DNA of 51,331 nt from an uncultured Clostridia bacterium (GTDB taxonomy: Bacteria > Bacillota > Clostridia > Christensenellales > UBA1242): NCBI GenBank assembly GCA_944349615.1, contig CALVNK010000002.1, forward strand, positions 1 to 51,331, written 5' to 3'. Shown in pieces: positions 8,564 to 38,700 of this stretch. The position numbers and the translations under genes were made by a program. The notes beneath the pieces are model-generated. The model saw only the letters and a program-made list of their open reading frames with translations, ran no database searches and was not told the origin of the DNA. Numbering within the stretch: the first letter of the stretch is position 1; each line of letters begins with the position of its first letter.

Positions 8564-9982
<1,419 letters not shown>

Positions 9983-12924: not shown

Positions 12925-13788
12925 TTATTTATTTGCACTAATAGTTATTAGCAAAGAAGATTGAAAATCAAAGATCTTTTGTTTTGCAACCAAAAGCCTT
13001 AATCTTTCTTCGTATTGACTTTTTAGCAAGGATAGAAGTTTGTTTTTTGTATTAGAGTCTACCTTGCTTTTATTTATTACAAAATTGGCATAGGAAAGTT
13101 TTGTTTGATAATTTCTTTCAATTTGGCTTATTGCAATTTGCTTCTTAGACTCGACATCTGGCATATAGTAAATTATTCTATTATAATTAAAATTTATATT
13201 CTTAAAATTGTATTGATATAGTCTTTGCATTGTTAAATCTGGATCTTCCACATACTCTCCAACGCCTGCAATCTTAGGATAACTTATACCACTATAGACC
13301 TTGTTGATTTCATCTTCCAAATACAAAAAAGGTTTATCATTATTTTTGATCATGTCAACACGCATAATGACAAGTTTTCCACCCTTATTCAAAACTCTTT
13401 TCTGCTCTTTGATAAAGTCATCAAAAGGCAAGTGTTCAATAAGGGTATGCGAAAATACGATATCAAAACTATTATCTTCAAAAGGCAAATGCGAAACATC
13501 TGCAACTTGATAATTGACATCAATATTAAGTCGTTTGCTTTCATTTTTGGCAAATTTTATATGATTATTATCTAAATCAATGCCATAAACATCGCAAGTT
13601 GGATAATATTTTTTAATCATATTGGTAAAATGCCCGCTTCCACAGCCAACTTCCAAAATTTTTAAGTTGTTTTGGATATGCAAGAGATTAAACCACAATT
13701 TTCTATTATAAACATTGAATTTTTCTTTGCGAGAAGTGTCTAAAAGTTGAGTTGATTGTACAGTTTCAGACCAAAAAGTGTTCACCAT
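12925..13788 (-). CDS. Class I SAM-dependent methyltransferase with C-terminal extension
   Basis: Motif I ILEVGCGSGHFT, then DVYGIDLD and FDIVFSH. Start at ATG 13786-13788 (MVNTFW) behind GGAGGAGGA. The longer track ORF runs through the tRNA-Ser gene. Confidence 0.85.
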   Translation of the reverse strand: MVNTFWSETVQSTQLLDTSRKEKFNVYNRKLWFNLLHIQNNLKILEVGCGSGHFTNMIKKYYPTCDVYGIDLDNNHIKFAKNESKRLNIDVNYQVADVSHLPFEDNSFDIVFSHTLIEHLPFDDFIKEQKRVLNKGGKLVIMRVDMIKNNDKPFLYLEDEINKVYSGISYPKIAGVGEYVEDPDLTMQRLYQYNFKNINFNYNRIIYYMPDVESKKQIAISQIERNYQTKLSYANFVINKSKVDSNTKNKLLSLLKSQYEERLRLLVAKQKIFDFQSSLLITISANK

Positions 13789-13831
13789 TTTCCTCCTCCC
13801 GATATGAAAAAAAGTACATTTAAAAAACCTC

Positions 13832-13922
13832 TGGCGGAGACGGTGGGATTCGAACCCACGTATCAGTTGCCCGATAAACGCATTTCGAGTGCGTCCCGTT
13901 ACGACCACTTCGGTACATCTCC
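13832..13922 (-). tRNA. tRNA-Ser (anticodon CGA), long variable arm, encoded CCA
   Basis: Folded by hand: acceptor GGAGATG/CGTCTCC (one G-U), anticodon stem ACGCA/TGCGT with loop CTCGAAA, long variable arm, T arm GTGGG-TTCGAAT-CCCAC, discriminator G plus CCA. 91 nt. Confidence 0.9.
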
Positions 13923-14219
13923 ATAAAAAATTTATTAAATTGCTGTTTGATATATAAATAGAACCTTTTTTATTATACAATCAAATCTTAAAATAAACAA
14001 GATAATTTTGATATTTTTTATAAATATTTCATTTTTTATCGCATATAATTATAAGATTTATTTTTTAAATTCAAAAAAATAACAAATTTCAAAAAAAGGG
14101 TTGCTTTTTGCCGACTTTTTTATATAATTAAATTATATGTAATAAATATCAATATTTAAAATTTAACAAATTTTAATTATATTTTAATTTCTAACAATAA
14201 CTATAAAAGGATATTATCT

Positions 14220-15287: not shown

Positions 15288-16373
15288 TTAAGCGTCACTA
15301 CCGTCTTTACATTTTTCAAAGAATTTTTCATTAAATTTAACTCTTTCATCATCTGGAGCAAATCCTTTGGAGATCAAATGATAGTGATATGCCTTCTCTC
15401 TGTCACCAATTTTATAATAGCAAACGCATAGTTGCAGGGCTGGAAAAAGTGTGTAGCAGTTTACATCATAAAACGCTCCGCTTGTAGTATCCATCTTCGC
15501 TGAGAGTGCGAGATTATACCAATAGATGGCCGTCAAATAGTCTTTATCATCAAAAAATTGATTTCCAATTTCGTAAAGTATTTCTCCCTTTGGTACGCCA
15601 TAAACAAATGAGCCGAATAGCGCAGTCAATGCGTTTTTCTTTTCTTTTTTTGCCATGTAACATCTAGCAAGATTTAAACACGCTTCAATATTATTTTCTT
15701 TCCACCCTTTCCCCTCTGACAAAAATTGTGAGAACTGATTGATTGCTTGTTCTATCATATTATTATAGTAAAGTTCGCGTGCAAAATAGAATTTTTGTCG
15801 TGGCGAGAAATTGACTTTATTTTCTTGCATTTTTAGATATATGTTAAGATTGCGACTTGTGTAAACCTTTTTCTTTTTGTTGTGATAAATTTTAATATCC
15901 TTATTGTGTACAACTTTTCCACTAGGCACAATAATTTCATGGACTGGATCATGCCATCTTAGATTCTTATCATTCTTGACTATTCGCTCTCTATAGAATT
16001 CAAATTTTGGTTTAAAATCTTTGTCAAAACTTGTGACATACGGACACATGACAACATCAACATCTTCTTTATCCTTCTTCCATTTTTTTATGGCATTTAC
16101 ACTTTCTTCTGTCAATATATCGTCAGCATCAAGCCAAATTATGTACTGATATTTCGCTTTATCAAAAGCAAAATTTCTTGCCTTAGAAAAGTCATCTTGC
16201 CAAACAAAATCATATACATATTTAGTAAATTTTTTCGCCACCTGTTTGGTTTTGTCTTGGCTTCCTGTATCTACAATGATAATTTCATCAGCGTACTCTT
16301 TTGCATTCTTTAGACAGTCACCGAGAGTGCTTTCTTCATCCTTGACTATCATGGCAAGCGATAATTTCTTCAT
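15288..16373 (-). CDS. Family 2 glycosyltransferase fused to a TPR-like C-terminal domain
   Basis: LSLAMIVKDEESTLGDCL...IIIVDTGSQDKT...WLDADD are GT-A/GT2 motifs. The C-terminal half has TPR-like A/Y/L repeats (ARCYMAKKEKKNALTA, AIYWYNLAL, CVCYYKIGDREKAYHY). Confidence 0.8.
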   Translation of the reverse strand: MKKLSLAMIVKDEESTLGDCLKNAKEYADEIIIVDTGSQDKTKQVAKKFTKYVYDFVWQDDFSKARNFAFDKAKYQYIIWLDADDILTEESVNAIKKWKKDKEDVDVVMCPYVTSFDKDFKPKFEFYRERIVKNDKNLRWHDPVHEIIVPSGKVVHNKDIKIYHNKKKKVYTSRNLNIYLKMQENKVNFSPRQKFYFARELYYNNMIEQAINQFSQFLSEGKGWKENNIEACLNLARCYMAKKEKKNALTALFGSFVYGVPKGEILYEIGNQFFDDKDYLTAIYWYNLALSAKMDTTSGAFYDVNCYTLFPALQLCVCYYKIGDREKAYHYHLISKGFAPDDERVKFNEKFFEKCKDGSDA

Positions 16374-16553
16374 AAAAACTCCTAATCAAATTATATGTTA
16401 CAAATTCTAAAAATGTCAAATTATAACAGCAATTTAAAGATAAACTATTAACTAAAAGAATTTATTTAATTAAAAAGATTAATTATAAAAATATGCTACA
16501 TAATATATTTGATAAATATATAATTATCTTTATATATTATTTGTTAAATTATT

Positions 16554-16581
16554 TTGAAATTTTGCTATGCTATGATAAAAT
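16554..16581 (+). promoter_or_regulatory. Sigma-70-type promoter candidate for the giant surface-protein gene
   Basis: TTGAAA, 16 nt spacer, TGaTAAAAT (extended -10), about 30 nt upstream of the RBS. Confidence 0.4.
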
Positions 16582-16612
16582 ATATTTGAAATATATTTTA
16601 AAGGGGTTAAAA

Positions 16613-19600
16613 ATGGTAAGAGTTAGAAAAATATTTTATTCTATTTTAATTTCATTAATTGCTTTTGGCTTTTTAAGCCTTGCATTCTTTACGCCAAAAA
16701 GCAATGACATCTTGTCATCAAATGCTGATGTCACTTATGATCAGATTACTAACAGTTATCCTGATTATCTTAAGATTAAAACCTCAGAGACTTCAGGTAC
16801 TGAAGTAGGTCAAGTTGGCAATGAAATCTTTTTGATGAGAGCAAACTCTTCTATCAGTCCAACTATTGGTACGGATATAATAGAGCAAGGATCGAGTAAT
16901 GCAAATTATGCATACTATCCAGATGAAGAAGGTAACCCTAAGCAATATTACTACTTCACTTTCCAAAACTCTCTTTCACTCTACTATAACCTTACAGCAT
17001 CGGATATTCAAAACGGACAGACTGGTACTAACCTTCTTACTCAGATTTCCAATGGCGCTGGTGGATATGAGGAAAATCGTATAACCTATTATACTTTTAC
17101 ACACGAAAATCCATTTGTACCACCAAATCTTAGCATAACCCCTCAAAGACTAGACATTGACTTTAAACTTAATACTCGCGAGTCAGCTATTACTAGATCT
17201 AATAATAATACGGTTACTCTTTACCAAGAAGGATGCTATACCCTTGCTATTGATGTAAATTATTTCTACACATCTAATGGCGGAGTAAGTTATACTAATA
17301 GCGCTCAAACAATATATTTTACTTTCTTAATTTTTAACACAGATACATATTTTAATGATGCCGGTATGCCACACCTTGCAATGTCATCTAATATGCAAGA
17401 ATCAACTGTAAGTAGCGACACCTATTCTAGATATTATTTTGCAAACTATAACTATGAAAAAAACACACAAAATGATACAACTACTATAACTAACTTCTCG
17501 TTTGATCCTGACAAATATCAAATAAACATTAATTATACCGACCTAAATTCAAATGTTAAAAGAGCCACAATCGTTTACACAAATGGCGAATTTGTTCAGT
17601 ATGATGAAAATAATGCTGTTATTTCAGAAGACGACTACTTTGTGTTTACTGATGTTGATATAAATGATGAAGACCAAAGCAAGACTGGATATATCTTCTT
17701 TACAGACCTTGGCAGTTACGATATCTCCATTCAATATCTATACAAGACTCAAGGACTAAACGGCGAACAAATATACGAACTACCTTTCACCGAACTTAGC
17801 GGAGATAGTGCGATTAACAGCAAACGCCAAAGAATTTATATTTATGGCTATCAAGCAGTTTTCTCAGATTATTCAAATCTCGACCCTGCTACAAACCAAC
17901 CTGCTTCGGTGGAACTTAAAACCTACAACTTTGAAAATGGTACATTCTCAGATAGCGCAGATATCACAGGTGAAGTAAATACATATATCGCTGAACATGG
18001 TAGCAGTACTTCAAAGATAGAAAGTACAGCGTCAAGCACGGCTTATGATGTTGATGATATAAAAGACTATGCACTTAATAGAATAAATCAAGCTGGCAGC
18101 ACACTTTCCCCTGTTTCTACAAATCAAACTCCTATTAAATTCTTGACAAACGCTACCAATTATGTAACAGACACGAATGCATCGAGCACAATTTTTAAAT
18201 TGTCTTATGATACAACTGATAGTCGTTGGGAGGTAGACAGTTCAAGCGATTTTGAAGGCTTCAATCAAAATTCTGCAGGCACATATCTATATGTAATTCA
18301 ATATACCTATGACTATTATATGTCAACAAGCGGTACACTGCAAGGTTCATACTACCACTATCAAATCTTCTTCTTTACTGTGACAAACACAATGCCTAGC
18401 GTTACAGTTGTTGATGACGAAAATTTTGAACAAATCTACACATCTGGATACACTAACAAGGGCGTATATATACTTGACGACTCTATGAATAACATCTATG
18501 ACGCTGAAGTTGAAATAACATTATCAGCACAAAACTATAATGCAGGCTCTAATGTTTACTTCTTCCAAGATGAGAATATTCTAGATCTTCAAAGTTATGG
18601 CATTTATTATGAAAAATTTAAAAATGTGAATGATGTCGTAAATGGCAAATATGGAATTTATATCCCCAAAAACGCATCTTTTGCAAATGCAGAGTTTACA
18701 ATAAAAATTTATTCTGCAAATACTGATAAGCCTAGCACAAGAACATTCACCATCGATACAAGTCCTATAAGTGAACTTCGGGCTACAAATGTTGAGTTTT
18801 CTTCTGGCAACAGTTATCGAATTCTCGACAATCTCTCTTCATACATCACAAATCAGTCGATAACTATGTCTTGGGCAGAAAAGGCAAGTGGAGCGACAAC
18901 CTATGGCTATGTTAAATACATTCCACTTAAAACAATCAACTATTACTCATCACAATCTTCAATAACTACTATTTCTTCACTCTTAGATTTCTGGCTTAAT
19001 TACAACAGTTCTAATCCAAGCGCTCAAGTTCAAGCTACCCTTCCTGTTTCCTACAAGCTAGATATTGAAGAGGGTGCAAGTCAGAGCTGGATTGAGTATC
19101 CAAACTCAAGATCATACTCATCATTCGTGACTTCTAGTTATGTAAAATCAGAAGCGGGAATATATATACTCGAAGTATATGATCAAGCAGGAAATTCTAG
19201 TTTTGAAATCTACATGATCGACAATAGCGAACCTGTATTTGTTCAAAGAACTGTATCATTAGACTTTACTCGCCTTGCTTTAATGGTCAACAACACTAGC
19301 ATTTCAATTCCAGAAGCAGACCCTATTACTGGACAGATTAGCACACAAATCACGATTGAATGGGCAAAACACAAAGCAATCTATCTTGACAATTTGACAA
19401 CGTCTAATCTTAAAAACTACGAGCCTTATGAATATACTATTGGACCTGCACAAGCACAACAAAATTTGACTGCAAAATTGCAAGAGTTCTTTAATTTCGA
19501 CAATCAAAAGATAATAAATGTAAACGATGTACCAGCGCAAGCTGTGACAGAAGAAATAGATGGTTCTCTAACTACAGGTATAGATGACTATGACGGATAT

Positions 19601-22600
19601 TATCTCGTAATTGATATAAATTCTACAGCCTATATTAAAAATTGGGATGCAGACACTTTTTCTCCTCAAAATGTCAGCACTTTAAGCGTACAATTTATAG
19701 ATGAAGAAGGCAAATCAATCGATGCTACATATAGAATTGCAATAAGAGATAGTGCAAATACAAAAACAACAGGCAACCCTACAGTCGACTATACAACCTA
19801 TCCATCTTCTTATATCTCTTTCAATGTATCAGCAGATGCATCAAAGGTGACCGTTAACTATATTGATAGTAATACGGGAAAGCCTAATACATTAAATGTC
19901 TCAAGCTTTGCTCATACTGGAAATCTTTATACAAAAACTAATGAAGATGATTCAATATCATATTCACATATTAAAGAAAATGAATATCAATTAGATGAAA
20001 ATTTATCCTACAAATTCTCATACCACTCACCTATCAATGCAAACAATGCTTTAAGAGTAAATTTCGTACCAGTTGCTGAAAATGGTTCTGAAGTTGACTC
20101 AATAACAATGTACTATTATGAATTTGTTAAAAAATCTGAGACTATAGATGGTAAAACTTATTGGTACTATACAATTTCAAATTCAAAAACACCTACTGAA
20201 ACTAGAGTTATATTCAAAGCAAGCGATGAAACAGTATATCAGCCAGGTCAAGAAGAGGATGCAGAAATCGCATTCGGCGATAATGATAGACCTTCTGCTG
20301 GTAGATATGTAATCGTTCGAGATTATAAAGCAAATTCAACGGTTGATAATTATGACTATTTTAGACGAACAATCACTTTCACTGTTGATACTAATGGAAT
20401 TATAACTAGACTTGAGGGAGTAAGCAACAAAGAAGGATCAGCTTCATCTCTTGAAAGTTTGGTCGGCGGTGATATCATTTTGAGTATGTATTCAAATGAT
20501 GGATATTCTTCTCTAGAGGTATCATTCCCTTCATATAACGAAGATGGACTTTCAAACGGATCCTTCTATACTCAAGGTTCATTCACCTCTGAAAAAGCAA
20601 ATGTTGCGGTTGCAGTCGAAGGAAATAAACTTCCGATGACACTCTATATTCCAAAATATAAATACACAACTACTACATATGAAAAAGAAACTGACACAAA
20701 TAGAAAATATTATGGAGTAGAAGAAAATCAAACCCTTTCTTACCACGGCAATTCACGCGTCGAAAAAGACGAGGCAGGCAGATGGAATGTTATAAGTGAA
20801 GGAGTTGTCATTCAAACTTTTGATTCGCAGGCGCAAGCAGAAAACTATTTAAACAGCAACATCTCAATCAAAGAATATGAAATCGTTGCCAACATCACGG
20901 CGGTGGCAACCGATGAAAATGGCGATGTGATAACCGATGAAAATGGCGATGCAGTGAAAAGATATTATGCTTCATCTTCTGATAATAGTAATGGATATCT
21001 TACTCTTTATGAAACAGATAGTTCATTCAACGTAAGTTCAAATAGCACACCTGTAAATTATTTCTACCTTGCAGGAATATATACAGTTGTTCTATATCAA
21101 GCACGAAACTTGGGTGAAACAGATGGCTTCTATCAGCTTTATAAATTTGCTTTCGAAATTTTAACTCAATCACCTGAATTTGATCTTATCACAAAGGATG
21201 GATATCAACTCTCACCTGCTGGCGACAGCACAGTATATTATACAAATACTGACGAGCTTCGCGTTCAATGGGAAGTGCCTACAAGCAATTATCAAGCAAG
21301 AATTGACACTAAAAATATAACAATCAACTCATCACCTTTAAGAACATATTCTGCAAATGTTGTTACTGAAGGCACTATCCAGTACTTTACGATTGACACC
21401 TCATATCTTCTTGCAAATGCAAATTCCTATGTTGACATAACGTTAAGATTTGAAGGTGACCAAAGTTACTATCGATCTACAACAAAACGAATTTACTTTG
21501 ATAGATCAGCACCACTTGAGAACATTCAATCTTTAATGAGTAAGACTGAAACTGCTACTGATCAAGCATTTACATTAAACTATCAACAAGTCTACATGAG
21601 AAGATATGCAAATCAGGATAATACCGAGCAGACAGTAGCATCTACTGACCAACTATCGACTATGAGTTATTCATACTCAATAGCAACAGGCGACTTTAGA
21701 TATTTCTCATACAATGTGGATATGTCATTCTTTAATTCAACACTCGCAAGCACTCTTATTAATGCAAGTACAAATCGTTACGGAACGCAATATATCTACT
21801 ATAAGACCATTCCTTCAATTGACTCGTACACGCAAGTAGATAAATCATCATTCTCTCAAAGTACTTATAAAGAGATTACCGTAAATGGAGCTAGTAACTT
21901 GTATTCAGGTTATTATGAAATCGTGGAAAGAGACTATGCGGGAAATATGACGGTATATGTTGTTTACCTAATACAAGGAGATGTTGAGACCGATCCAAAT
22001 GTAGACTCCAATGCAATCTCTTATATCAATAACAATAATACTGAAAACATTTCTATTGATTCAAGTGAAATTACAAACGGAATGAATATATATTCAAATT
22101 CTGGCTTTGAAATAACAAATTACAATTACATGTCTGATCCTTGGGCTATGATCTATGTTAGACAAAGCGGATCTTCACTTGTAAAATATATGAAATCTCC
22201 TTGGCTTGAAGAAAATCGTATTTGGAGAATAACTTTCTCTGGAAGTGGTGTATCACTTACTGAAACATCAATTAATGAAATCATGCAAAGCGTTCAGTCG
22301 TCATCTAACAAGCATCAACTCATGTTTGTAAATAGAGCAGATGGTGTATTTAATACCGTTTACCTTACCATAATGGATGCTTCTATATCTGCACAAAAGA
22401 TTGAAGATCCAAATCACACATCAGCAATACTTAATATAAATGTACCAACTCAAGCTCAATATGCTTCAACTGAAACAGCTTATGTATTCCCTACAAAGAT
22501 TACAATCTTGCAATTTACTACGACTGGTTCTAACCCTAACGATTGGAATACAATCTACATAGCAAATCAAGATCCTTATGGCACATGGACTGCTGATAAT

Positions 22601-25204
22601 CGTTATGAAAGTGCATCATCGTATATATCATTCACTACCCTTTCTTCTGGAACGATCTTGCAAATTAGAGTAAACCTTGGCGCAAACTCATCATCTAAAA
22701 TAAGATATGAGATTGTTGATAACTTTGGCAATAAGACAGTTATCATCCAACTTGCGAATGAAATATCATTCAACGAAATCGTTGGCACATCAACTGTCTA
22801 TACTTACACCGAGAGCAATGGCGATACTACATATCTTTCAGACCAAAGCATTATGTTTCAATATAACAATTTACTTTACAGTGTCAAAATTATGAATGGA
22901 GATGGAACAGATATCACTAACACTCTTCCACCGCCTCAAAGTCAAGGAAACAATATATATTCTTATACATTCTCACCTTCTACTTCGACCAACTGGGACA
23001 ATTATTTCAAGGTTGAAATTTCAGATATTGAGAGAGGAGAATGGATTAGAACAATCCATGTTAGGCTCTATTATAAACTTCCATACTTTGCGACAAGTTT
23101 AACTGAAGTTTCATCTGGCGGAATAGTATTCCAAGATAAAGACGGAAAGCCAATTACAAATTATGCTCAAACAACTAATGAAACAGTATATTTTGAAGGT
23201 AGACCATATACTACAACAGGATATTCAATCACAACCTACTCACAAGATGTAACTATGTTCTTTAGAGATGGTCAATCACTCAATTATATCGGACAATATA
23301 ATTATCGACTTGAATATAAATATAGTTTATATCTATCGCGTGATAATGGACAGACCTGGGAAAGCATAAACTCTTCATCATCTGCAACAAGTGGCGTAAG
23401 AATTTCAGGTACAGGGAATTATATCATCTTTGCTAAATATGATGATGAAAATATCTTTACTAACCTATCCAAAATCTATAGAGTTGAAATACTTGATACT
23501 GAATCTTCATTCTACTATATAACACTCGATGGTTTAAATGTCGAAAAGAGCGATATAAGATATGTGGATGCAAACGGAAAAGAGTATGGTTCAACCTATC
23601 TTGTTAGATTAAATCATAATGAAATTAATCATGACGATTTGATTGTCTATGAAGGTGAAGATGATGGTACAACTATTGTTTCAAGACTTCGTATCATTTT
23701 AAATCCCGAACTGAATGTAGATTGCGAATTGAAACCTTGCATTCCTGAAGAAAACGAAGCATTTGTTGATGTTTTCCACTACACTGCTGAAAATGATGAC
23801 GGACAAATCATCTCTCAGGGCGACTTTGCAATCATCTATATACGAGAAAGTAGCGACTTTGTAAGCCTACTCACCTATGAAACTCCCTATGGCACAACAG
23901 GCTCAATGAAATCAAGTTCATCTGTTACAGTTGTCGTAGATAATTCTGCTCAAAGCAGTCAAATGAGAATTAATTACTCATCTATAAACGGAATTGATGC
24001 AAATAGAATCAATATTGAAGTATTAAAATACTTTAATGGTGAATATGTAGAAATATATCCTACTGTTTATAGTAGTGGTGATACTTCTTACATATATCTT
24101 GAAAGAGCAGGCTCTTATAGAATAAAACTCTATGACTCATGTACCCCTGCCAATGTACAACTATTTAGAAATGGCGAATATTTGGATATTATTTTACTAA
24201 ACTCAATACCATTCACTGTATCGCATACAGAAACGACAACAGACGGCAGTGAAACAGTAGAAGAAACAGTTGTGACTGAGAAAATTCAAAATGCTATTTA
24301 TAATAATGCTGTAACAATTTCGCTTTACAACCTTTCAACTTATTATCAAGCAGGCGGATATCCTGTAATAAGCGTACAACGAAATGGATATGATTATACA
24401 AATTATACAAGCAGAAATTATACATATACATTCTCGGAACCAGGTTATTATTCGGTTAAATTCACCGCAACTTCAAGGACAACAAGTTCTGATGGAAGTC
24501 AAGAAACCTTACCTCAAATTAGAGAAGAAGTTTATAACTTTACCATTCTCAATCCAAACGAATCTAGATATGCATTCGAATATACCGAGTATCAAAACTA
24601 TTACATCTCAAGGATATTGAAAAATGGTATAGATATTACTGACGAACTTGCTGAAATTTCAAATTTCTCGACAGTTGTTATCGATGGCAGAACATATTTG
24701 ACAGAACTGAATGTAAACTACCTTGATAAAAAGACAGGAAGCGGTCGATATGAAATTACCGTTAATACCAACCAATCGCAATTTACTAACTTAATCGGCG
24801 AAGAATTCTCTTTCGCATTCTGGATTAATACCGCAACTCCTCCACTATCAATTTCGGTGGCTGAAGGCGAAAGCACAACTTCAAATATAACTATTTCCTT
24901 CAATACTCAAAATCTCTATGACGCAATGGGAGATTGTTACATACAGGTTGGCTCGCAAAGAGTTGAAATATCACAATCTACTCTGCCTACACTTTCAGTA
25001 GGCTATACAATCACAATTTCCGAAACAGGAACATATTATGTGCAAGTCTATTCAATGAGCGGATACTTGCTTTACTCATATAAAGTACAAAAAACCGCAC
25101 CATTAAACGCATTTGCTATAATTGCAATCGTACTCGGAGTCATCGCAGCAATAGTTATTGTGATAATTACAATCAGACTAAGAAAACGCCAAAAAGTTAA
25201 GTAA
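16613..25204 (+). CDS. Giant (2863 aa) membrane-anchored cell-surface protein, beta-rich, adhesin-like
   Basis: Start at ATG 16613 (MVRVRKIFYSILISLIAFGFLSLAFF, a signal/anchor) behind AAAGGGG. The C-terminus is a TM helix FAIIAIVLGVIAAIVIVIITI plus the stop-transfer RLRKRQKVK, with no LPxTG. Composition is rich in S/T/N/Y. Recurrent D-x-AGN/D-N-F-GN strand motifs (YDQAGNSSFEIYMIDNSEP, RDYAGNMTVYVVYL, VDNFGNKTVIIQL) are typical of Ig-like/HYR-type surface domains. Confidence 0.8.
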   Translation: MVRVRKIFYSILISLIAFGFLSLAFFTPKSNDILSSNADVTYDQITNSYPDYLKIKTSETSGTEVGQVGNEIFLMRANSSISPTIGTDIIEQGSSNANYAYYPDEEGNPKQYYYFTFQNSLSLYYNLTASDIQNGQTGTNLLTQISNGAGGYEENRITYYTFTHENPFVPPNLSITPQRLDIDFKLNTRESAITRSNNNTVTLYQEGCYTLAIDVNYFYTSNGGVSYTNSAQTIYFTFLIFNTDTYFNDAGMPHLAMSSNMQESTVSSDTYSRYYFANYNYEKNTQNDTTTITNFSFDPDKYQININYTDLNSNVKRATIVYTNGEFVQYDENNAVISEDDYFVFTDVDINDEDQSKTGYIFFTDLGSYDISIQYLYKTQGLNGEQIYELPFTELSGDSAINSKRQRIYIYGYQAVFSDYSNLDPATNQPASVELKTYNFENGTFSDSADITGEVNTYIAEHGSSTSKIESTASSTAYDVDDIKDYALNRINQAGSTLSPVSTNQTPIKFLTNATNYVTDTNASSTIFKLSYDTTDSRWEVDSSSDFEGFNQNSAGTYLYVIQYTYDYYMSTSGTLQGSYYHYQIFFFTVTNTMPSVTVVDDENFEQIYTSGYTNKGVYILDDSMNNIYDAEVEITLSAQNYNAGSNVYFFQDENILDLQSYGIYYEKFKNVNDVVNGKYGIYIPKNASFANAEFTIKIYSANTDKPSTRTFTIDTSPISELRATNVEFSSGNSYRILDNLSSYITNQSITMSWAEKASGATTYGYVKYIPLKTINYYSSQSSITTISSLLDFWLNYNSSNPSAQVQATLPVSYKLDIEEGASQSWIEYPNSRSYSSFVTSSYVKSEAGIYILEVYDQAGNSSFEIYMIDNSEPVFVQRTVSLDFTRLALMVNNTSISIPEADPITGQISTQITIEWAKHKAIYLDNLTTSNLKNYEPYEYTIGPAQAQQNLTAKLQEFFNFDNQKIINVNDVPAQAVTEEIDGSLTTGIDDYDGYYLVIDINSTAYIKNWDADTFSPQNVSTLSVQFIDEEGKSIDATYRIAIRDSANTKTTGNPTVDYTTYPSSYISFNVSADASKVTVNYIDSNTGKPNTLNVSSFAHTGNLYTKTNEDDSISYSHIKENEYQLDENLSYKFSYHSPINANNALRVNFVPVAENGSEVDSITMYYYEFVKKSETIDGKTYWYYTISNSKTPTETRVIFKASDETVYQPGQEEDAEIAFGDNDRPSAGRYVIVRDYKANSTVDNYDYFRRTITFTVDTNGIITRLEGVSNKEGSASSLESLVGGDIILSMYSNDGYSSLEVSFPSYNEDGLSNGSFYTQGSFTSEKANVAVAVEGNKLPMTLYIPKYKYTTTTYEKETDTNRKYYGVEENQTLSYHGNSRVEKDEAGRWNVISEGVVIQTFDSQAQAENYLNSNISIKEYEIVANITAVATDENGDVITDENGDAVKRYYASSSDNSNGYLTLYETDSSFNVSSNSTPVNYFYLAGIYTVVLYQARNLGETDGFYQLYKFAFEILTQSPEFDLITKDGYQLSPAGDSTVYYTNTDELRVQWEVPTSNYQARIDTKNITINSSPLRTYSANVVTEGTIQYFTIDTSYLLANANSYVDITLRFEGDQSYYRSTTKRIYFDRSAPLENIQSLMSKTETATDQAFTLNYQQVYMRRYANQDNTEQTVASTDQLSTMSYSYSIATGDFRYFSYNVDMSFFNSTLASTLINASTNRYGTQYIYYKTIPSIDSYTQVDKSSFSQSTYKEITVNGASNLYSGYYEIVERDYAGNMTVYVVYLIQGDVETDPNVDSNAISYINNNNTENISIDSSEITNGMNIYSNSGFEITNYNYMSDPWAMIYVRQSGSSLVKYMKSPWLEENRIWRITFSGSGVSLTETSINEIMQSVQSSSNKHQLMFVNRADGVFNTVYLTIMDASISAQKIEDPNHTSAILNINVPTQAQYASTETAYVFPTKITILQFTTTGSNPNDWNTIYIANQDPYGTWTADNRYESASSYISFTTLSSGTILQIRVNLGANSSSKIRYEIVDNFGNKTVIIQLANEISFNEIVGTSTVYTYTESNGDTTYLSDQSIMFQYNNLLYSVKIMNGDGTDITNTLPPPQSQGNNIYSYTFSPSTSTNWDNYFKVEISDIERGEWIRTIHVRLYYKLPYFATSLTEVSSGGIVFQDKDGKPITNYAQTTNETVYFEGRPYTTTGYSITTYSQDVTMFFRDGQSLNYIGQYNYRLEYKYSLYLSRDNGQTWESINSSSSATSGVRISGTGNYIIFAKYDDENIFTNLSKIYRVEILDTESSFYYITLDGLNVEKSDIRYVDANGKEYGSTYLVRLNHNEINHDDLIVYEGEDDGTTIVSRLRIILNPELNVDCELKPCIPEENEAFVDVFHYTAENDDGQIISQGDFAIIYIRESSDFVSLLTYETPYGTTGSMKSSSSVTVVVDNSAQSSQMRINYSSINGIDANRINIEVLKYFNGEYVEIYPTVYSSGDTSYIYLERAGSYRIKLYDSCTPANVQLFRNGEYLDIILLNSIPFTVSHTETTTDGSETVEETVVTEKIQNAIYNNAVTISLYNLSTYYQAGGYPVISVQRNGYDYTNYTSRNYTYTFSEPGYYSVKFTATSRTTSSDGSQETLPQIREEVYNFTILNPNESRYAFEYTEYQNYYISRILKNGIDITDELAEISNFSTVVIDGRTYLTELNVNYLDKKTGSGRYEITVNTNQSQFTNLIGEEFSFAFWINTATPPLSISVAEGESTTSNITISFNTQNLYDAMGDCYIQVGSQRVEISQSTLPTLSVGYTITISETGTYYVQVYSMSGYLLYSYKVQKTAPLNAFAIIAIVLGVIAAIVIVIITIRLRKRQKVK

Positions 25205-25213
25205 AGTCAAAAA

Positions 25214-25246
25214 AGAGATAAATTTCAAAAATTTATCTCTTTTTTA
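25214..25246 (+). terminator. Rho-independent terminator
   Basis: AGAGATAAATTT-CAA-AAATTTATCTCT followed by TTTTT, 10 nt after the stop. Confidence 0.8.
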
Positions 25247-25406
25247 AATAACTAAAAAGCATCAAAAATCAATAGCGAAACTTGATCTTAACCAAATTAT
25301 ATTATAGGTACAATTAACAAAATATCATTTTTATAATGGATAATAATCCTTTTTTTTCTATTGACAATTTTTCGTTGTTTTTATATAATAAAAATGGAGA
25401 TGAAAG

Positions 25407-26951
25407 ATGTTTTTAGAATTTAGTGAAATAAAAAAGTTTAAAACTATAGCAGATTTTGATCAATATAAAAGTAAACTTTATGATGCAAAAAGTGAAGAAC
25501 TCCAAAAAGATATGAATGACACGAAAAATGTGCCACCTTATGCATTAAAAAAATATAGTGAACTTTCTGATGACGAAAAAAGCCAAATGTGCAGATCTTA
25601 TTATACTAACAAACTATATAATATTTATCTTGTAATGGCCTTTCAAAAGGGAGATGAAAAGAACTTAAAAACAATGGAAAAAGAATTCTCGAGGAAAAGT
25701 CAACAGAAATATTTTAGCGAGGAGGAAAGCAGAAATATCCACAAAGAATACCAAGAGGATCACCTTCGTAACTTAAAACAATGGAAAAGTGAATTAAATA
25801 CTTACTTAAATAACATTAGAATTACAATAAAAAGATCAGAACTAAATAAAGAAAACTTAATTTTACTAAAAGAATTTTGCGAAACATTGTTAGATAAGGG
25901 CGAACAGATTTCTATCTATGTACACGATAAACAGCAACAAAACGATGACAGTATAGACTACCTTTACTCTAATCAACAAATAAATCAAATTATCGAACTT
26001 AATAACGATTTATTGAATAAAGGAATGCAAAATCAAATTAGATTCTTCGAAAATCATTTAATCTATTCGGAAATAGATCTATATTCTTCTTGGACTCTAG
26101 ATGATGTTGTTAATGCCAATAAAAATATTGACTCAGTCGTCGATCATATTAAACAAAACAACTATTCACCTTATGAAGCAATGACATATATACACATGTA
26201 TGTAACAAAAAACTTTGAATATAATGACGGCACTCTGGAAGCTTGTCGATCTATTGTTGGAGCATATAAAGGAACTATTGTTTGTGCTGGATATGCTACT
26301 TTAGTTAAGGCAATAGTCGATAAATTGAATGATCCAAATTTACAATGTGACATTTTAGGATGTAATTTCTATAAAAAACAACTATTTGGATATAAAAATA
26401 CTGGTGCCCACTCTCACAATTTAATACACATAAATGACGAAAAATATGGTATCAAAGGACATTACATGGAAGATACCTGTTGGGATGCCAAAAATGACTA
26501 CTATCCTGATGGAAAAGGATTTGCATATTTTATGTATCCTGTATCAGACCTTGAATATTTTAACGGGCTAGTTTATCAACAACAATTTAGTGATTATTTA
26601 TACGACAATATCTTTTTTGATACCCGGGTTTTTGATAAAGGGTTTGAAAATAAACGTGACAAATTTAAGCCTAAAACACCTGAAGTTATAGAAAGATATG
26701 CGCAGGAAAGCAAGGCAATCCCATTAGACACCTTAGAACAGGCAGTTTTTACAGTTTATCAAAGTGTAGAAAAAGATAAGAGCTTAACTGAACAAAAAAT
26801 AGAGGAAAAAATGAAATCATCTACAGAAATAGCAAAGAGATCTTTTACTAATAAGGCACAATCCTGCTTAGTGACTAATAGTAAATATAAAATAAGGCGA
26901 ATAAATAAGAAACCTATTAGTTTGGCTGAAAATGATGGCAGATTAATATAA
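25407..26951 (+). CDS. Transglutaminase-like (papain-fold Cys-His-Asp) domain protein with helical N-terminal half
   Basis: RBS AATGGAGATGAAAG. In the C-terminal half, EAMTYIHMYVTKNFEY, GTIVCAGYATLVKAIV, GAHSHNLIHI and YMEDTCWD match the order and spacing of the transglutaminase-core Cys, His and Asp. Confidence 0.55.
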   Translation: MFLEFSEIKKFKTIADFDQYKSKLYDAKSEELQKDMNDTKNVPPYALKKYSELSDDEKSQMCRSYYTNKLYNIYLVMAFQKGDEKNLKTMEKEFSRKSQQKYFSEEESRNIHKEYQEDHLRNLKQWKSELNTYLNNIRITIKRSELNKENLILLKEFCETLLDKGEQISIYVHDKQQQNDDSIDYLYSNQQINQIIELNNDLLNKGMQNQIRFFENHLIYSEIDLYSSWTLDDVVNANKNIDSVVDHIKQNNYSPYEAMTYIHMYVTKNFEYNDGTLEACRSIVGAYKGTIVCAGYATLVKAIVDKLNDPNLQCDILGCNFYKKQLFGYKNTGAHSHNLIHINDEKYGIKGHYMEDTCWDAKNDYYPDGKGFAYFMYPVSDLEYFNGLVYQQQFSDYLYDNIFFDTRVFDKGFENKRDKFKPKTPEVIERYAQESKAIPLDTLEQAVFTVYQSVEKDKSLTEQKIEEKMKSSTEIAKRSFTNKAQSCLVTNSKYKIRRINKKPISLAENDGRLI

Positions 26952-35750: not shown

Positions 35751-38700
35751 ATGCCAAGAAAATATGGTCTTACAGGTAAGTATCCTGTAACAGTATCAAA
35801 CAAAATCAGCACTAGATTTGGAGATGAGGAGGTCAAATTTGTACAAAACGTGCAAATGAATCTTGATAGTCAAAATCTTTTCGAGCTCAACGAAGCAAAT
35901 AATGACGGCTCAAAGAGTAATGCAACCTCGCCTACCCTTACTATTAATGTTGATAAAGATAATGTCTATTCCGTTTCTTTTAGCGAGGCAGTCGCATCTC
36001 AATTCGAAAAACAGTTCAAAGAACTTGGAATTGATGACGATCACCTTAAGGCAATAATAGATGATAGAAAACTTCAAATAGATAGCAACGATAGTGCTAT
36101 TTCTGTTGAATCAAAAAATAATGAATTTATAGTGACCGTTAAATCTAAAGACGGAAAAGAATATACACTTGTGGCAAATTCAACAGGTGTTAAATTGGAC
36201 TATGGAGAGCATAAATTCGCCTATTCTCTTGGGAAAGATAAGCATCTTGATGTAAATATGCATAGAGATTTTGCAACAAGTATGCTAAAACAAGAAAAGC
36301 CTTTTGCAGAAATTACCGCAAAAGAAAAACAAGATCGCGTTCGTTCAATCCCCCATTATATAATTTATGAATACTGCCAAGGCTTTAAAAATAAAGATGT
36401 GAATATGCAAAGTCCAACAACAATTGGAGATTTTACATTTTATCGCGCACAATTAGACCCAGATAAACAAGGATCAAGTATTACTGATTATGTGTTTATC
36501 AAAGATGAAAAGACAAAACAAGTTTTTCTATATGGAAATGGCGGACTAAATGAGTGTAAAAATTATTTTTTCACACAAGATAAAAATGGAAAACTATCTT
36601 TGGATATTAACTTCAGACAAGGTGGAAAAACAACTGAAATTGACTGCCAAAATCCCAAATTTAAAGAATTTTTCCATAATTTTACACAAATTAATTTACC
36701 ACAAGCAGGTGCTAGTGATAAAGCAGGAAATGTGTTCGAAAAAATTTCAACTCTAGATATTGATGGACAAAAATATGATGTATATCATAATAATCCGACA
36801 GCAACTCTTAATACACGATTTTCTTATACTCAAAAAAAATATGAGCAAGAAAGTATAGTCGCAGATGAAGATGAAATAAACATTGGTCCTACTGGACCTA
36901 CTGGACCAACCGGACCTACTGGACCTACTGGACCAACCGGTCCTACTGGGCCTACTGGGCCAACCGGTCCTACTGGGCCTACTGGGCCTACGGGACCTAC
37001 GGGACCTACGGGACCTACCGAACCTACTGGACCTACCGGACCTACTGATCCTACTGGACCTATTGGACCTACCGGGTCTACTGATCCTATTATTCATACC
37101 GATCCTACTGAGCCTACTGATCCTATTATTCATACCGATCCTACTGAGCCTACTGATCCTACTGGTCCAACCGGTCCTACTGGTGCTGAAGAAATTAACA
37201 ATACCGAAAAGCAAGATCAATCAACCGAAAATAAACCACATTATAAAAAAGTAACAAAAGTTAAGCCTGGAAGAACGGTCGGCAAAGAAACAAGCTATAA
37301 ATATCAAGCCGAAGCGATTGGTATGTCAATGGGAATGATTGGACTATTTTTAGGTATTCTTGCTCCATTCCTTGGTCCTGTTGTGCTTTTTGTTGGTCTT
37401 GGGCTAACTTTAGGTGGTGTTGGGCTTGGCGTACTTGCCGATAAGCTGGAATTTAAACCATATAATATAGCAGAAAAAACCATCACTAAATATGAAAAAT
37501 TAGAAGAAGAAGAGAAAGATTTAGAGAAAGAGATGGAAAAGTCTGCATCTAAATTTATTGATGGCGAAGAGAAACTTGATTCTCTTGAAATAGAAAATCA
37601 AGGATTGGCACAAGATGTAATGCAATTTGCAGATAATGCTGGCGATAGATATCATCCACTACCTGATTTTATTGAACAAGTAAACACCTTTGCTCCTATT
37701 TCTCATCCAAAAGATGAAAATGGTAATGTTATTGTTTCTAACATAGATTATCTTGACAAAGAAAATCTACAATATAGACAAGCTCTGATCGCGGAACTAA
37801 AAAGAATTAACCTGATGCCAGAAGATGAAGCTATAAGAACAAGAGGCTTGGGAAAGAATAAAGAAACTCTTCCAACAAATAAAGAATTAAAACAACAGGC
37901 AATAGAAAGTTTTAAACAACAATTCTATATAACCGATATGAGTCAAGATGACCGAAAAAAAGTTTCCGACACAATTGAGGGACTTTTTGCTAAACCTCAA
38001 CTGCTAGCTGAATTTGTAGATACAGCAGAGAAATATAATAGTGCTCAGGAATCAGAAAACACACTTTTACAATCTCAAAGAAAAGAAATTGCTGGCATGG
38101 ACAATAAAATGCTTGATAAAATCTACAATAATAGTCGATCAAATGCTCAACGACGAGCAAAACTTGACGAAAGACATGCAACTGCCATCATAAGATCACG
38201 AGCAATTAACAACAAGTTAAATACCCAGGAAAATCAAGAATTACTAAATTTAGTACCCGAAGAAGAAAGAGAAATTCATGCTCAATATTTTGCTAATGCA
38301 TCACAGCAACTTGAGAATGAGGTAAATGAAATAAAAGAAATTGCAAAAGACAATGTAGAAAGAATTGCAATTGTTGAAATGCTACCTAAGTATATTGAGA
38401 GTATTCAAGAAGATAACTCAAATTATGCAACCAAACTGCAAGCACAAGAGGCAACTTTAGATTATCTCTATACTTACACTCAAAATTACTATGCTGACGA
38501 TGAAATTACAAGTTTTTTCAAAGATTTGAGACAAACTAATTATGTCACTCCTTCTAAAACGGTTTTGGGTCCTAAGACCTATGATGCATTCGATAAAATT
38601 CGCGAAAGTGGAAATTTAATTTTAGATGACTTGTTAAATGTTGAAGAAACTTCTAAAATTAAAAATCAAATCTTTAATTTTATTGATGATAAGTATGCAG

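What the first reader, a model, noticed from the sequence alone, without database searches (positions are those of the whole stretch)
15288..25246. 2863-aa type-I-anchored surface protein lying divergent to a GT2-TPR glycosyltransferase
Seen:
- A single 8.6-kb ORF with an N-terminal signal/anchor.
- A C-terminal TM helix plus RLRKRQKVK, instead of an LPxTG sortase signal.
- Extreme S/T/N/Y richness and almost no long exact internal repeats.
- Recurring domain-end motifs D-x-AGN at about 19182-19241 and 21926-21970, and D-N-F-GN at about 22719-22755.
- The 239-bp divergent intergenic region is shared with a GT2 catalytic domain fused to TPR repeats.
Established knowledge: D-x-AGN..D..P strands mark Ig-like/HYR-type domains of bacterial adhesins, and TPR-fused GT2 enzymes commonly act on protein substrates.
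Inference: this may be a glycosylated giant adhesin or surface-layer-like fibre. The divergent arrangement suggests co-regulation of substrate and modifying enzyme. The lack of exact repeats, unusual for giant adhesins, suggests many diverged domains, possibly of undescribed folds.
Basis: partly seen in the sequence, partly recalled or inferred. Interest (0 to 1): 0.6.

Follow-up and report, generated by a model that had tools for sequence, protein, structure and literature searches.

The report
Giant membrane-anchored Ig-domain surface protein
This is a real 2863-residue surface protein built from about twenty different Ig-like domains and tethered by a C-terminal membrane helix, conserved across a family of small-genome gut Clostridia, but the neighbouring sugar-transferase gene most likely serves collagen-like spore proteins rather than this giant.

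Summary
It is one 8.6-kb gene (16613-25204, 2863 aa) with a signal peptide, a C-terminal TM helix plus RLRKRQKVK tail, no LPxTG, S/T/N/Y-rich composition, no internal repeats, recurring D-x-AGN motifs, and a GT2+TPR gene 239 bp away on the other strand.

Pfam, NCBIfam and PDB sequence searches find nothing. AlphaFold2 models of residues 38-2330 are confident (pLDDT 87 and 82) and match only tandem Ig-like arrays, so the folds are not new.

The gene is a single-copy, length-conserved (2.4-3.2k aa) core gene:
- It is in 23/24 genomes of its genus.
- It is in 60/80 genomes (43/58 genera) of its roughly 1-Mb-genome family.
- It forms 447 clusters at 50% identity in 1.84 billion proteins.

The glycosylation link is not supported:
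- 38 of 60 family genomes with the giant lack the GT.
- The two genes are adjacent only within part of one genus.
- Across Clostridia the GT sits within 500 bp of a collagen-like (BclA-type) gene in 39/76 loci, as in C. difficile sgtA-bclA3.
- The window's own BclA-like gene lies 5.3 kb away.

First readers of this scan noted the same gene pair on at least six other genomes.

Verdict: a new, unnamed family of a familiar kind of giant surface protein. Interest is moderate.

The parts
16613..25204 (+). Giant gene, 2863 aa plus stop codon
   Evidence: ORF and RBS. Full-length orthologues at 26-94% identity. RNA-library contigs of 8552 and 8652 nt span 16679-25161 and 16606-25214.
16613..16726 (+). 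Signal peptide, residues 1-38, with predicted cleavage after S-N-A38
   Evidence: A basic n-region, a hydrophobic core and an [SA]-x-A site are conserved in all 17 orthologues read. A38 is at least 90% conserved. Cleavage is inferred, not shown.
16727..25090 (+). Ectodomain: about 20 mutually dissimilar Ig-like beta-sandwich domains of 100-200 aa, some with helical inserts
   Evidence: AF2 models of residues 38-1130 (pLDDT 86.8, pTM 0.56) and 1131-2330 (pLDDT 82.1, pTM 0.58). Foldseek top hits are titin, CEA, SbsC, contactin and alpha-2-macroglobulin. VIA-align gives Z 6.1-9.0 to single Ig-like domains. Residues 2331-2826 were not modelled; motifs and an Atlas lead point to Big_13/PKD-type domains.
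17963..18412 (+). Strain-level hypervariable block, residues about 451-600
   Evidence: It is 69-84% identical in homologues that are 93-95% identical overall. The region is rich in indels in the family alignment. One RNA-library contig (X15) replaces 18029-18063 with other letters.
19181..19195 (+). D857-x-A-G-N861 domain-end motif
   Evidence: Invariant in 29 homologues.
20903..20950 (+). 24-nt tandem duplication (two DENGD loops), polymorphic between strains
   Evidence: One copy is absent from contigs of three runs (table 4).
21932..21946 (+). D1774-x-A-G-N1778 domain-end motif
   Evidence: D1774, A1776 and N1778 are invariant and G1777 nearly so.
22718..22732 (+). D2036-N-F-G-N domain-end motif
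   Evidence: D2036 and N2037 are invariant and G2039 is at least 90% conserved.
25091..25111 (+). Juxtamembrane motif K-T-A-P-L-N-A (family consensus [KR]-x-E-P-L-N)
   Evidence: P2830 and N2832 are invariant. The motif is kept in other genera whose ectodomain is only 23-30% identical.
25112..25174 (+). C-terminal transmembrane helix, residues 2834-2854
   Evidence: 21 hydrophobic residues. Together with the tail below, it forms the most conserved block of the protein.
25175..25201 (+). Cytoplasmic basic tail RLRKRQKVK
   Evidence: The family consensus is [KR]LRKRxKV[KR].
16374..16612 (.). 239-bp divergent intergenic region with separate promoter-like sites
   Evidence: On the minus strand, TTGACA-18-TATAAT (12/12) at 16419-16390. 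On the plus strand, TTGAAA-16-TG-TAAAAT at 16554-16581. These are consensus matches only.
15288..16373 (-). Cytoplasmic GT-A (GT2) plus TPR protein glycosyltransferase, SgtA/GmaR-like
   Evidence: Pfam PF00535 at 2e-21. PDB hits GmaR 1e-27 and SunS 6e-14. The DADD motif is invariant in most positions (D82, A83, D85; D84 at least 90%). It has the same length and layout as C. difficile SgtA (PMC7157674). It sits next to collagen-like genes in other Clostridia.
8576..9982 (+). BclA-like collagen protein without a signal peptide; the more likely substrate of the GT
   Evidence: Pfam Collagen at 3.6e-27. BclA_C at 1.2e-6, covering 4-127 of 128 positions but below the curated cut-off. It lies 3-7 kb from the GT in four other genomes of the genus.

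Best explanation
The gene encodes a lineage-specific giant surface protein.

How it is made and held (inferred from sequence):
- It is exported by the general Sec pathway, and the N-terminal signal peptide is probably cut after Ala38.
- The C-terminal helix stops transfer, and the basic tail stays in the cytoplasm. The protein is therefore a type I membrane protein with its N-terminus pointing outward.
- This organism has no detectable sortase, SLH, CWB2 or exosortase machinery, so tethering by a TM helix or a lipid is its way of displaying surface proteins.

What the ectodomain is:
- Its roughly 2790 residues form about 20 different Ig-like beta-sandwich domains. This is shown by modelling for 80% of the length.
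- Fully extended, at about 4 nm per domain, it would reach some 80 nm, enough to cross the wall and project beyond it (inferred).
- The membrane-proximal quarter and the anchor are the most conserved parts. A block in the N-terminal third varies between strains. This fits an exposed, interaction-bearing distal part on a constant stalk.

Most likely role (inferred, about 50%): attachment to, or spacing from, host surfaces, food particles or other cells in the animal gut.

The divergent GT2-TPR gene is not its dedicated partner. It is a cytoplasmic protein O-glycosyltransferase of the SgtA/GmaR type. Its ancestral and most likely substrates are collagen-like BclA-type spore-surface proteins, one of which lies 5.3 kb away.
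For: Gene and topology.

No known family by sequence.

Fold:
- AF2 pLDDT is 86.8 and 82.1.
- Foldseek and VIA-align hits are all Ig-like arrays or single Ig-like domains.

Non-repetitive.

Conservation:
- 23/24 genomes of the genus, and 0/16 other families of the order.
- 60/80 genomes and 43/58 genera of the family, always inside ORFs of 2400-2900 aa.
- 447 clusters at 50% identity, always at the C-terminus of 2.4-3.2k aa proteins.
- The gene converges on rplA in 11 of 20 orthologue loci searched.
- The C-terminal signature is kept across genera.

Variation: a strain-level variable block at residues 451-600 and a near-invariant C-terminal 600 aa.

Anchoring context:
- No sortase, SLH, CWB2 or exosortase found.
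- At least five other giants in the genome have the same signal peptide plus TM plus basic-tail layout.

Presence in RNA libraries: contigs of two chicken-gut metatranscriptome runs (one study) start and stop at the gene's borders.

GT:
- Closest solved relatives are GmaR and SunS.
- Same architecture as SgtA (PMC7157674).
- At least 591 relatives across Clostridia.
- A collagen-like ORF lies in the flanks of 43/76 loci, within 500 bp in 39, and on the same strand in 40 of the 43.
- Family table: giant+GT+ 22, giant+GT- 38, giant-GT+ 3, neither 17.
- Only one SecA.
Against: - No experiment or structure shows surface exposure, signal-peptide cleavage or any ligand.
- pTM values of 0.56-0.58 are higher than usual for freely jointed bead chains. 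The ectodomain may be partly compact rather than an extended fibre, and I could not inspect the coordinates.
- Residues 2331-2826 were not modelled.
- The very strong conservation of the EPLN-TM-RKRxKVK end is more than a plain stop-transfer anchor needs and is unexplained.
- Within the sub-clade nearest the window, the GT-giant divergent pairing is kept in all 10 loci that could be tested. A secondary, lineage-specific link is therefore not excluded.
- Orthology of the GT to C. difficile SgtA was not tested by direct sequence comparison.
- RNA-library contigs cannot prove transcription or give expression levels.
Confidence: 0.6

Rival explanations
1. The giant is O-glycosylated in the cytoplasm by the divergent GT2-TPR enzyme before export, and the two genes are co-regulated from the shared 239-bp region.
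For: - The divergent adjacency is kept in 8/8 testable close orthologue loci, plus G022 and G023.
- The GT is of a protein-modifying type.
- The giant is 21% Ser plus Thr.
Against: - 38/60 family genomes with the giant have no GT at E<=1e-30.
- Outside the genus the two genes are never adjacent.
- Within the genus, G006 (99% complete) has the giant and no GT match, and G011 (99% complete) has only a 23%-identical GT-like match. In G007, G008 and G003 the GT lies on a different contig from the giant.
- GT orthologues occur in at least 8 other families without the giant. In other Clostridia they sit next to collagen-like genes.
- There is only one SecA and no accessory Sec system.
- The promoter-like sites are separate, and the RNA contigs of the two genes are separate.
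Confidence: 0.08
2. The protein is not an adhesin. It is a structural envelope component: an S-layer-like coat, a wall spacer, or a shield that keeps other surfaces at a distance, as described for the giant staphylococcal proteins Ebh, SasG and SraP.
For: - It is a core, single-copy, length-conserved gene across a whole family.
- No conventional S-layer anchoring domains were found in the genome.
- Foldseek hits include the S-layer proteins SbsC, Sap and the Haloferax S-layer protein.
- The moderately high pTM suggests fixed inter-domain packing.
- Shielding by giant surface proteins is documented in PMC6548404.
Against: - No lattice-forming evidence exists.
- S-layer hits are no better than hits to titin, CEA or contactin.
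- The strain-variable distal block is more typical of an interaction surface.
- The genome holds at least 11 other ORFs over 1600 aa, most of them S/T/N/Y-rich surface proteins, that could equally form a coat.
Confidence: 0.22
3. The conserved EPLN motif, TM helix and basic tail form a tripartite sorting signal. An unidentified enzyme cleaves it, and the protein is then attached to the wall or a lipid rather than remaining a plain type I membrane protein.
For: - The C-terminal 35 residues are the most conserved part: 46-74% identical where the ectodomain is 23-54%.
- The motif is kept across genera.
- The layout mimics LPXTG, PEP-CTERM and PGF-CTERM signals.
Against: - No sortase or exosortase was found.
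- No NCBIfam C-terminal sorting model matches above its cut-off. The best is GG_III-CTERM at 15.7 bits against a cut-off of 22.
- Only this one protein in the genome carries the motif.
- The other giants have dissimilar tails.
Confidence: 0.1
4. The N-terminal hydrophobic segment is an uncleaved signal anchor. The protein would then be tied to the membrane at both ends, forming a giant extracellular loop.
For: - The h-region is long (20 residues).
- The putative cleavage site lies 12 residues beyond it.
Against: An [SA]-x-A site at the same alignment position is kept in all 17 orthologues despite low identity around it. That is expected only if the site is used.
Confidence: 0.08

Closest known systems
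Tandem bacterial Ig-like adhesins and surface fibres (SiiE, BapA, LapA; Big_3/Big_13/PKD/DUF5011-type proteins of Bacillota)
   Same: A very long chain of Ig-like beta-sandwiches with G-x-Y...D-x-A-G-N strand motifs, an S/T/N-rich and Cys-poor composition, and a surface location.
   Different: - No Pfam model matches, even at E<=1, apart from PKD at 0.1-0.4.
- The domains are all different rather than repeated.
- The length is constant across genera.
- It is a core syntenic gene rather than an accessory one.
- It is anchored by a TM helix, not by T1SS retention or LPXTG.
Ebh of Staphylococcus aureus (giant surface protein; its C-terminal membrane anchor is recalled from my own knowledge; shielding role in PMC6548404)
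   Same: A giant Sec-exported Firmicute protein held by a C-terminal membrane-spanning segment with a charged tail instead of LPXTG, long enough to span the wall.
   Different: By my recollection, Ebh is built from repeated helical modules, whereas this protein is nearly all beta and non-repetitive. There is no sequence similarity.
Haloferax volcanii S-layer glycoprotein, and the bacterial S-layer proteins SbsC and Sap
   Same: Ig-like domain arrays that appear among the Foldseek hits. By my recollection, the archaeal protein also has a signal peptide and a C-terminal TM-type anchor.
   Different: - No PGF-CTERM motif and no archaeosortase or exosortase.
- No SLH or CWB2.
- No evidence of a lattice.
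- It has about 20 domains rather than about 6.
C. difficile SgtA-BclA3 and Listeria GmaR-flagellin (for the neighbouring GT gene)
   Same: - A GT-A domain followed by TPRs, 361 aa against 358 aa for SgtA (PMC7157674).
- GmaR is the best PDB sequence hit at 1e-27.
- Orthologues in other Clostridia lie directly beside collagen-like G-x-T genes.
- The genome is that of a spore former (Spo0A and SpoIVA).
   Different: - In this window the BclA-like gene is 5.3 kb away, not in an operon.
- The sugar and the acceptor are untested.

Membership tests
Sortase-anchored LPXTG surface proteins | LPXTG-type motif before the C-terminal TM helix and basic tail | tested here: not met
   The motif is K-T-A-P-L-N-A (family consensus E-P-L-N). 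No LPXTG occurs in 29 aligned homologues.
Sortase-anchored LPXTG surface proteins | A sortase encoded in the genome | tested here: not met
   PF04203 was not found in the 94%-complete genome, while the control genomes gave hits.
Pfam bacterial Ig-like families (Big_1-13, PKD, HYR, DUF5011) | A match to the family HMM above the gathering score | tested here: not met
   There are 0 families at E<=0.01 on the whole protein. On slices at E<=1 the only relevant hits are PKD/PKD_4 at 0.11-0.43.
Ig-like beta-sandwich fold class | A predicted 3D structure superposable on solved Ig-like domains | tested here: met
- VIA-align: Z 9.0, rmsd 3.4 over 105 residues; Z 6.1, rmsd 4.4 over 112 residues.
- Only a few domains were individually matched.
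S-layer proteins of Firmicutes | SLH or CWB2 wall-binding domains | tested here: not met
   There is no Pfam hit on the protein, and neither PF00395 nor PF04122 was found in the genome.
S-layer proteins of Firmicutes | Self-assembly into a 2D lattice; very high expression | not testable with these tools
   The runs are kept only as contigs and cannot give expression levels.
Serine-rich repeat glycoproteins exported by the accessory Sec system | SecA2/SecY2 and serine-rich repeats | tested here: not met
   There is one SecA, which scores above the cut-off of the canonical SecA model. No repeats were found.
Exosortase/archaeosortase-type C-terminal sorting signals | A match to a known CTERM model and a cognate sorting enzyme | tested here: not met
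   The best match is GG_III-CTERM at 15.7 bits, below its cut-off of 22. PF09721 was not found.
SgtA/GmaR-type protein O-glycosyltransferases (the neighbouring gene) | N-terminal GT-A domain with a DXD motif plus C-terminal TPRs; cytoplasmic | tested here: met
   - PF00535 at 2e-21, with TPR matches over residues 198-354.
- The DADD motif is conserved: D82, A83 and D85 invariant, D84 at least 90%.
- GmaR at 1e-27.
- The sequence shows no signal peptide or TM segment.
SgtA/GmaR-type protein O-glycosyltransferases (the neighbouring gene) | Genetic linkage to a collagen-like (BclA-type) substrate gene | tested here: met
   A collagen-like ORF lies within 500 bp in 39/76 loci. In this window the BclA-like gene is 5.3 kb away.
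SgtA/GmaR-type protein O-glycosyltransferases (the neighbouring gene) | Transfer of GlcNAc to Thr of G-x-T repeats | not testable with these tools
   This needs an enzyme assay.

The most novel reading that the evidence does not exclude
The protein may be the defining envelope organelle of a whole family of roughly 1-Mb-genome, probably host- or partner-dependent gut Clostridia. On this reading it is a fixed-architecture fibre of about 20 unique Ig-like domains whose every domain has been kept in order across more than 40 genera. Its invariant EPLN-TM-RKRxKVK end would be a new single-substrate sorting or docking signal that couples the fibre to an unknown membrane or cytoplasmic partner.
Probability: 0.12. 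Interest if true: 0.65.

Novelty: new variant of a known kind. Interest (0 to 1): 0.38.

Why it matters
This bacterial family has genomes of only 0.7-1.6 Mb. Even so, it spends about 0.8% of its DNA on this one gene. In this genome about 10% goes to giant ORFs of over 1600 aa, most of them surface proteins. That suggests cell-surface contacts are central to how these uncultured gut Clostridia live.

The giant is an unnamed, well-delimited protein family (447 clusters at 50% identity) that could be given a family model.

Showing that the GT partners with collagen-like genes corrects an inference that first readers of this scan have drawn repeatedly for this gene pair. It also extends the SgtA-BclA3 spore-glycosylation module from C. 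difficile to a broad range of Clostridia.

Tried and rejected
- Sequence searches. Pfam, NCBIfam and PDB sequence searches of the giant found nothing, whether with a single sequence, a 29-sequence profile or slices at E<=1.
- Oversized fold job. A 67-row alignment was too large to fold. It was replaced by alignments of 38 and 37 rows.
- VIA-align. On the 1100-1200-residue models it tests only one or two domains each. It therefore cannot show that the remaining domains lack specific relatives.
- ESM Atlas. For residues 2331-2863 it gave only 0.80-score leads to Big_13/PKD clusters, which are not evidence.
- Paralogues. None of the giant was found in its own genome.
- Sorting system. The motif occurs once in the genome and no sorting enzyme was found, so a general system was rejected.
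- Sequon enrichment. Rejected, with 54 observed against about 51 expected.
- Downstream gene as partner. The transglutaminase-like gene at 25407-26951 was rejected as a partner because it was not detected in any of the 20 orthologue loci searched; in 11 of them the giant converges directly on rplA.
- RNA depth. Depth figures from RNA-library contigs, and the uncovered stretch 25343-26676, cannot be used to rank expression or to prove transcription.
- BclA C-terminal domain search. It found the domain in only 8/24 genomes of the genus. Collagen repeats assemble poorly, so its absence elsewhere is not informative.
- SgtA comparison. No direct comparison of the GT with the C. difficile SgtA sequence was possible, because no reference to that sequence was available.
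Full report
**The gene.** The longest frame runs 16493-25204. It leaves 239 bp (16374-16612) to the divergent gene at 15288-16373. All stated features were found:
- an N-terminal basic and hydrophobic leader;
- a C-terminal K-T-A-P-L-N-A motif, a 21-residue TM helix and the tail RLRKRQKVK, with no LPxTG;
- S+T+N+Y at 38.9% against 24.2% genome-wide;
- D-x-AGN motifs at residues 857, 1774 and 2036;
- a single 24-nt tandem duplication as the only DNA repeat.

A sliding profile-profile self-comparison found no internal repeat above 44% probability. Only the short G-x-Y strand motif recurs. N-x-S/T sequons (54) equal the number expected from composition.

**What the protein is.**
- Pfam, NCBIfam and PDB sequence searches are empty, even with a 29-sequence profile.
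- AlphaFold2 with family alignments gave confident models: residues 38-1130 (pLDDT 86.8, pTM 0.56) and 1131-2330 (pLDDT 82.1, pTM 0.58). Both are almost all beta, with a few helical inserts.
- Foldseek places both among tandem Ig-like arrays: titin I65-I70, CEA, contactins, the S-layer proteins SbsC and Sap, and alpha-2-macroglobulins.
- VIA-align matches single domains to Ig-like folds at Z 6.1-9.0.
- From strand groupings and motif spacing I estimate about 20 domains of 100-200 aa.
- The folds are therefore familiar. The family itself is unnamed.

**Distribution.**
- The genome is a 1.10-Mb, 94%-complete assembly of an uncultured Clostridia bacterium. DNA runs place it mainly in chicken gut.
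- Full-length orthologues at 26-94% identity and 2700-2940 aa occur in 23/24 genomes of the genus and in 0/16 other families of the order.
- With the C-terminal 1033 aa as query, 60/80 genomes (43/58 genera) of the family have a match. All these genomes are 0.7-1.6 Mb. Nearly every match lies at the end of an ORF of 2400-2900 aa.
- An exhaustive profile search of 1.84 billion representatives found 447 clusters. All the full-length ones carry the module at the C-terminus of proteins of 2.4-3.2k aa.
- Homologues from five of six other genera read keep the signal peptide, the composition and a [KR]-x-E-P-L-N, TM, [KR]LRKRxKV[KR] end. Their ectodomains have drifted to 23-30% identity.
- In 11 of the 20 orthologue loci searched the gene converges directly on rplA. 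The transglutaminase-like gene downstream in this window was not found in any of them.
- Conservation is even along the length and highest at the anchor.
- Among near-identical strains, variation concentrates in residues 451-600, while the last 600 aa are almost invariant.

**Anchoring context.**
- No sortase, SLH, CWB2 or exosortase was found.
- The genome holds at least 12 ORFs over 1600 aa, about 10% of its DNA.
- At least six of these, counting this gene, have the signal peptide, C-terminal TM helix and basic-tail layout. Three have lipoprotein signals.
- TM or lipid tethering is therefore the organism's general display mode.

**Presence in RNA libraries.** In two chicken-gut metatranscriptome runs from one study, single contigs of 8552 and 8652 nt span 16679-25161 and 16606-25214. 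That is the gene and little else. The GT lies on separate contigs. This is weak evidence for a monocistronic transcript; contigs cannot prove transcription or give levels.

**The glycosyltransferase.**
- It is a cytoplasmic GT-A plus TPR protein. Its DADD motif is conserved: three positions invariant and the fourth at least 90%.
- Its closest solved relatives are the Listeria flagellin O-GlcNAc transferase GmaR (1e-27) and the peptide S-glycosyltransferase SunS.
- C. difficile SgtA, which glycosylates the collagen-like spore protein BclA3, has the same size and layout: 358 aa, GT-A at 1-260 and TPR at 262-358 (PMC7157674).
- The GT is adjacent and divergent to the giant in all 10 testable loci of the nearest sub-clade.
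- Elsewhere in the genus it lies on another contig (G007, G008, G003), is not found (G006, 99% complete), or is represented only by a 23%-identical match (G011, 99% complete).
- Full-length orthologues occur in at least 8 other families of the order that lack the giant.
- Across the family the counts are giant+GT+ 22, giant+GT- 38, giant-GT+ 3 and neither 17. The two genes are never adjacent outside the genus.
- A scan of species genomes found at least 591 relatives. In 43 of the 76 loci that could be scored, a collagen-like ORF lies in the flanks: within 500 bp in 39, and on the same strand in 40 of the 43. The window's whole genome holds only two such tracts, both in this window.
- The window's BclA-like gene (8576-9982; Collagen 3.6e-27, BclA_C 1.2e-6) lies 5.3 kb from the GT. 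It lies 3-7 kb from the GT in four other genomes of the genus.
- The organism has Spo0A and SpoIVA, one SecA and no accessory Sec system.
- The GT is therefore best read as an SgtA-like enzyme for collagen-like spore proteins. Its pairing with the giant is a local gene-order feature.

**Verdict.**
The glycosylation and co-regulation half, and the hint of new folds, are not.
- The function (adhesion or spacing) remains inferred.
- The unusually conserved C-terminal signature is unexplained.
- First readers of this scan noted the same gene pair on at least six other genomes.

Noticed in passing
whole genome G000 (contigs C12, C4, C85, C8, C25, C22, C17, C42, C39, C19): A 1.10-Mb genome carries at least 12 ORFs over 1600 aa, including two of 6880 and 6875 aa. 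Together they make up about 10% of the DNA. Most are S/T/N/Y-rich and have either a lipoprotein signal or a signal peptide plus C-terminal TM helix and basic tail.
   Followed up: partly
window 20903-20950: The 24-nt tandem duplication (two DENGD loops) is a strain polymorphism. Contigs from three runs lack one copy.
   Followed up: yes
window 17963-18412, and 17096-17116, 18029-18063: A block at residues about 451-600 is 69-84% identical between strains that are otherwise about 97% identical. Short segments are replaced outright in related strains' contigs: 17096-17116 in all four runs and 18029-18063 in one. This suggests diversifying selection or cassette exchange.
   Followed up: partly
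window 25407-26951: The transglutaminase-like gene between the giant and rplA was not found in any of the 20 orthologue loci searched. In 11 of them the giant converges directly on rplA.
   Followed up: partly
window 8576-9982 and 36830-37093: The only two collagen-like (G-x-x) tracts of at least 10 repeats in the whole genome both lie in this window. One is the BclA-like gene and the other is the (GPT)n stretch of the 1808-aa protein.
   Followed up: partly
G000 contigs C27, C8, C44: Three separate matches to the Spo0A C-terminal domain score above Pfam's cut-off in a 1.1-Mb genome. One is strong (133 bits) and two are weaker (75 and 54 bits).
   Followed up: no
window 13835-13922 (-): A tRNA gene overlaps the 5' part of the ORF called at 12925-13980. 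The methyltransferase must therefore start further downstream.
   Followed up: no
window 16390-16419 (-): A perfect TTGACA-18-TATAAT match sits only about 17 nt upstream of the GT start codon, leaving almost no leader. A sigma-A-type consensus is not what one would expect for a sporulation-specific sgtA-like gene.
   Followed up: no
loci L053, L066 and many of L039-L112: GT2-TPR orthologues in cultured and uncultured Clostridia, such as Ligaoa zhengdingensis and Lentihominibacter hominis, lie directly next to one or two collagen-like genes. This looks like a widespread sgtA-bclA-like module.
   Followed up: partly
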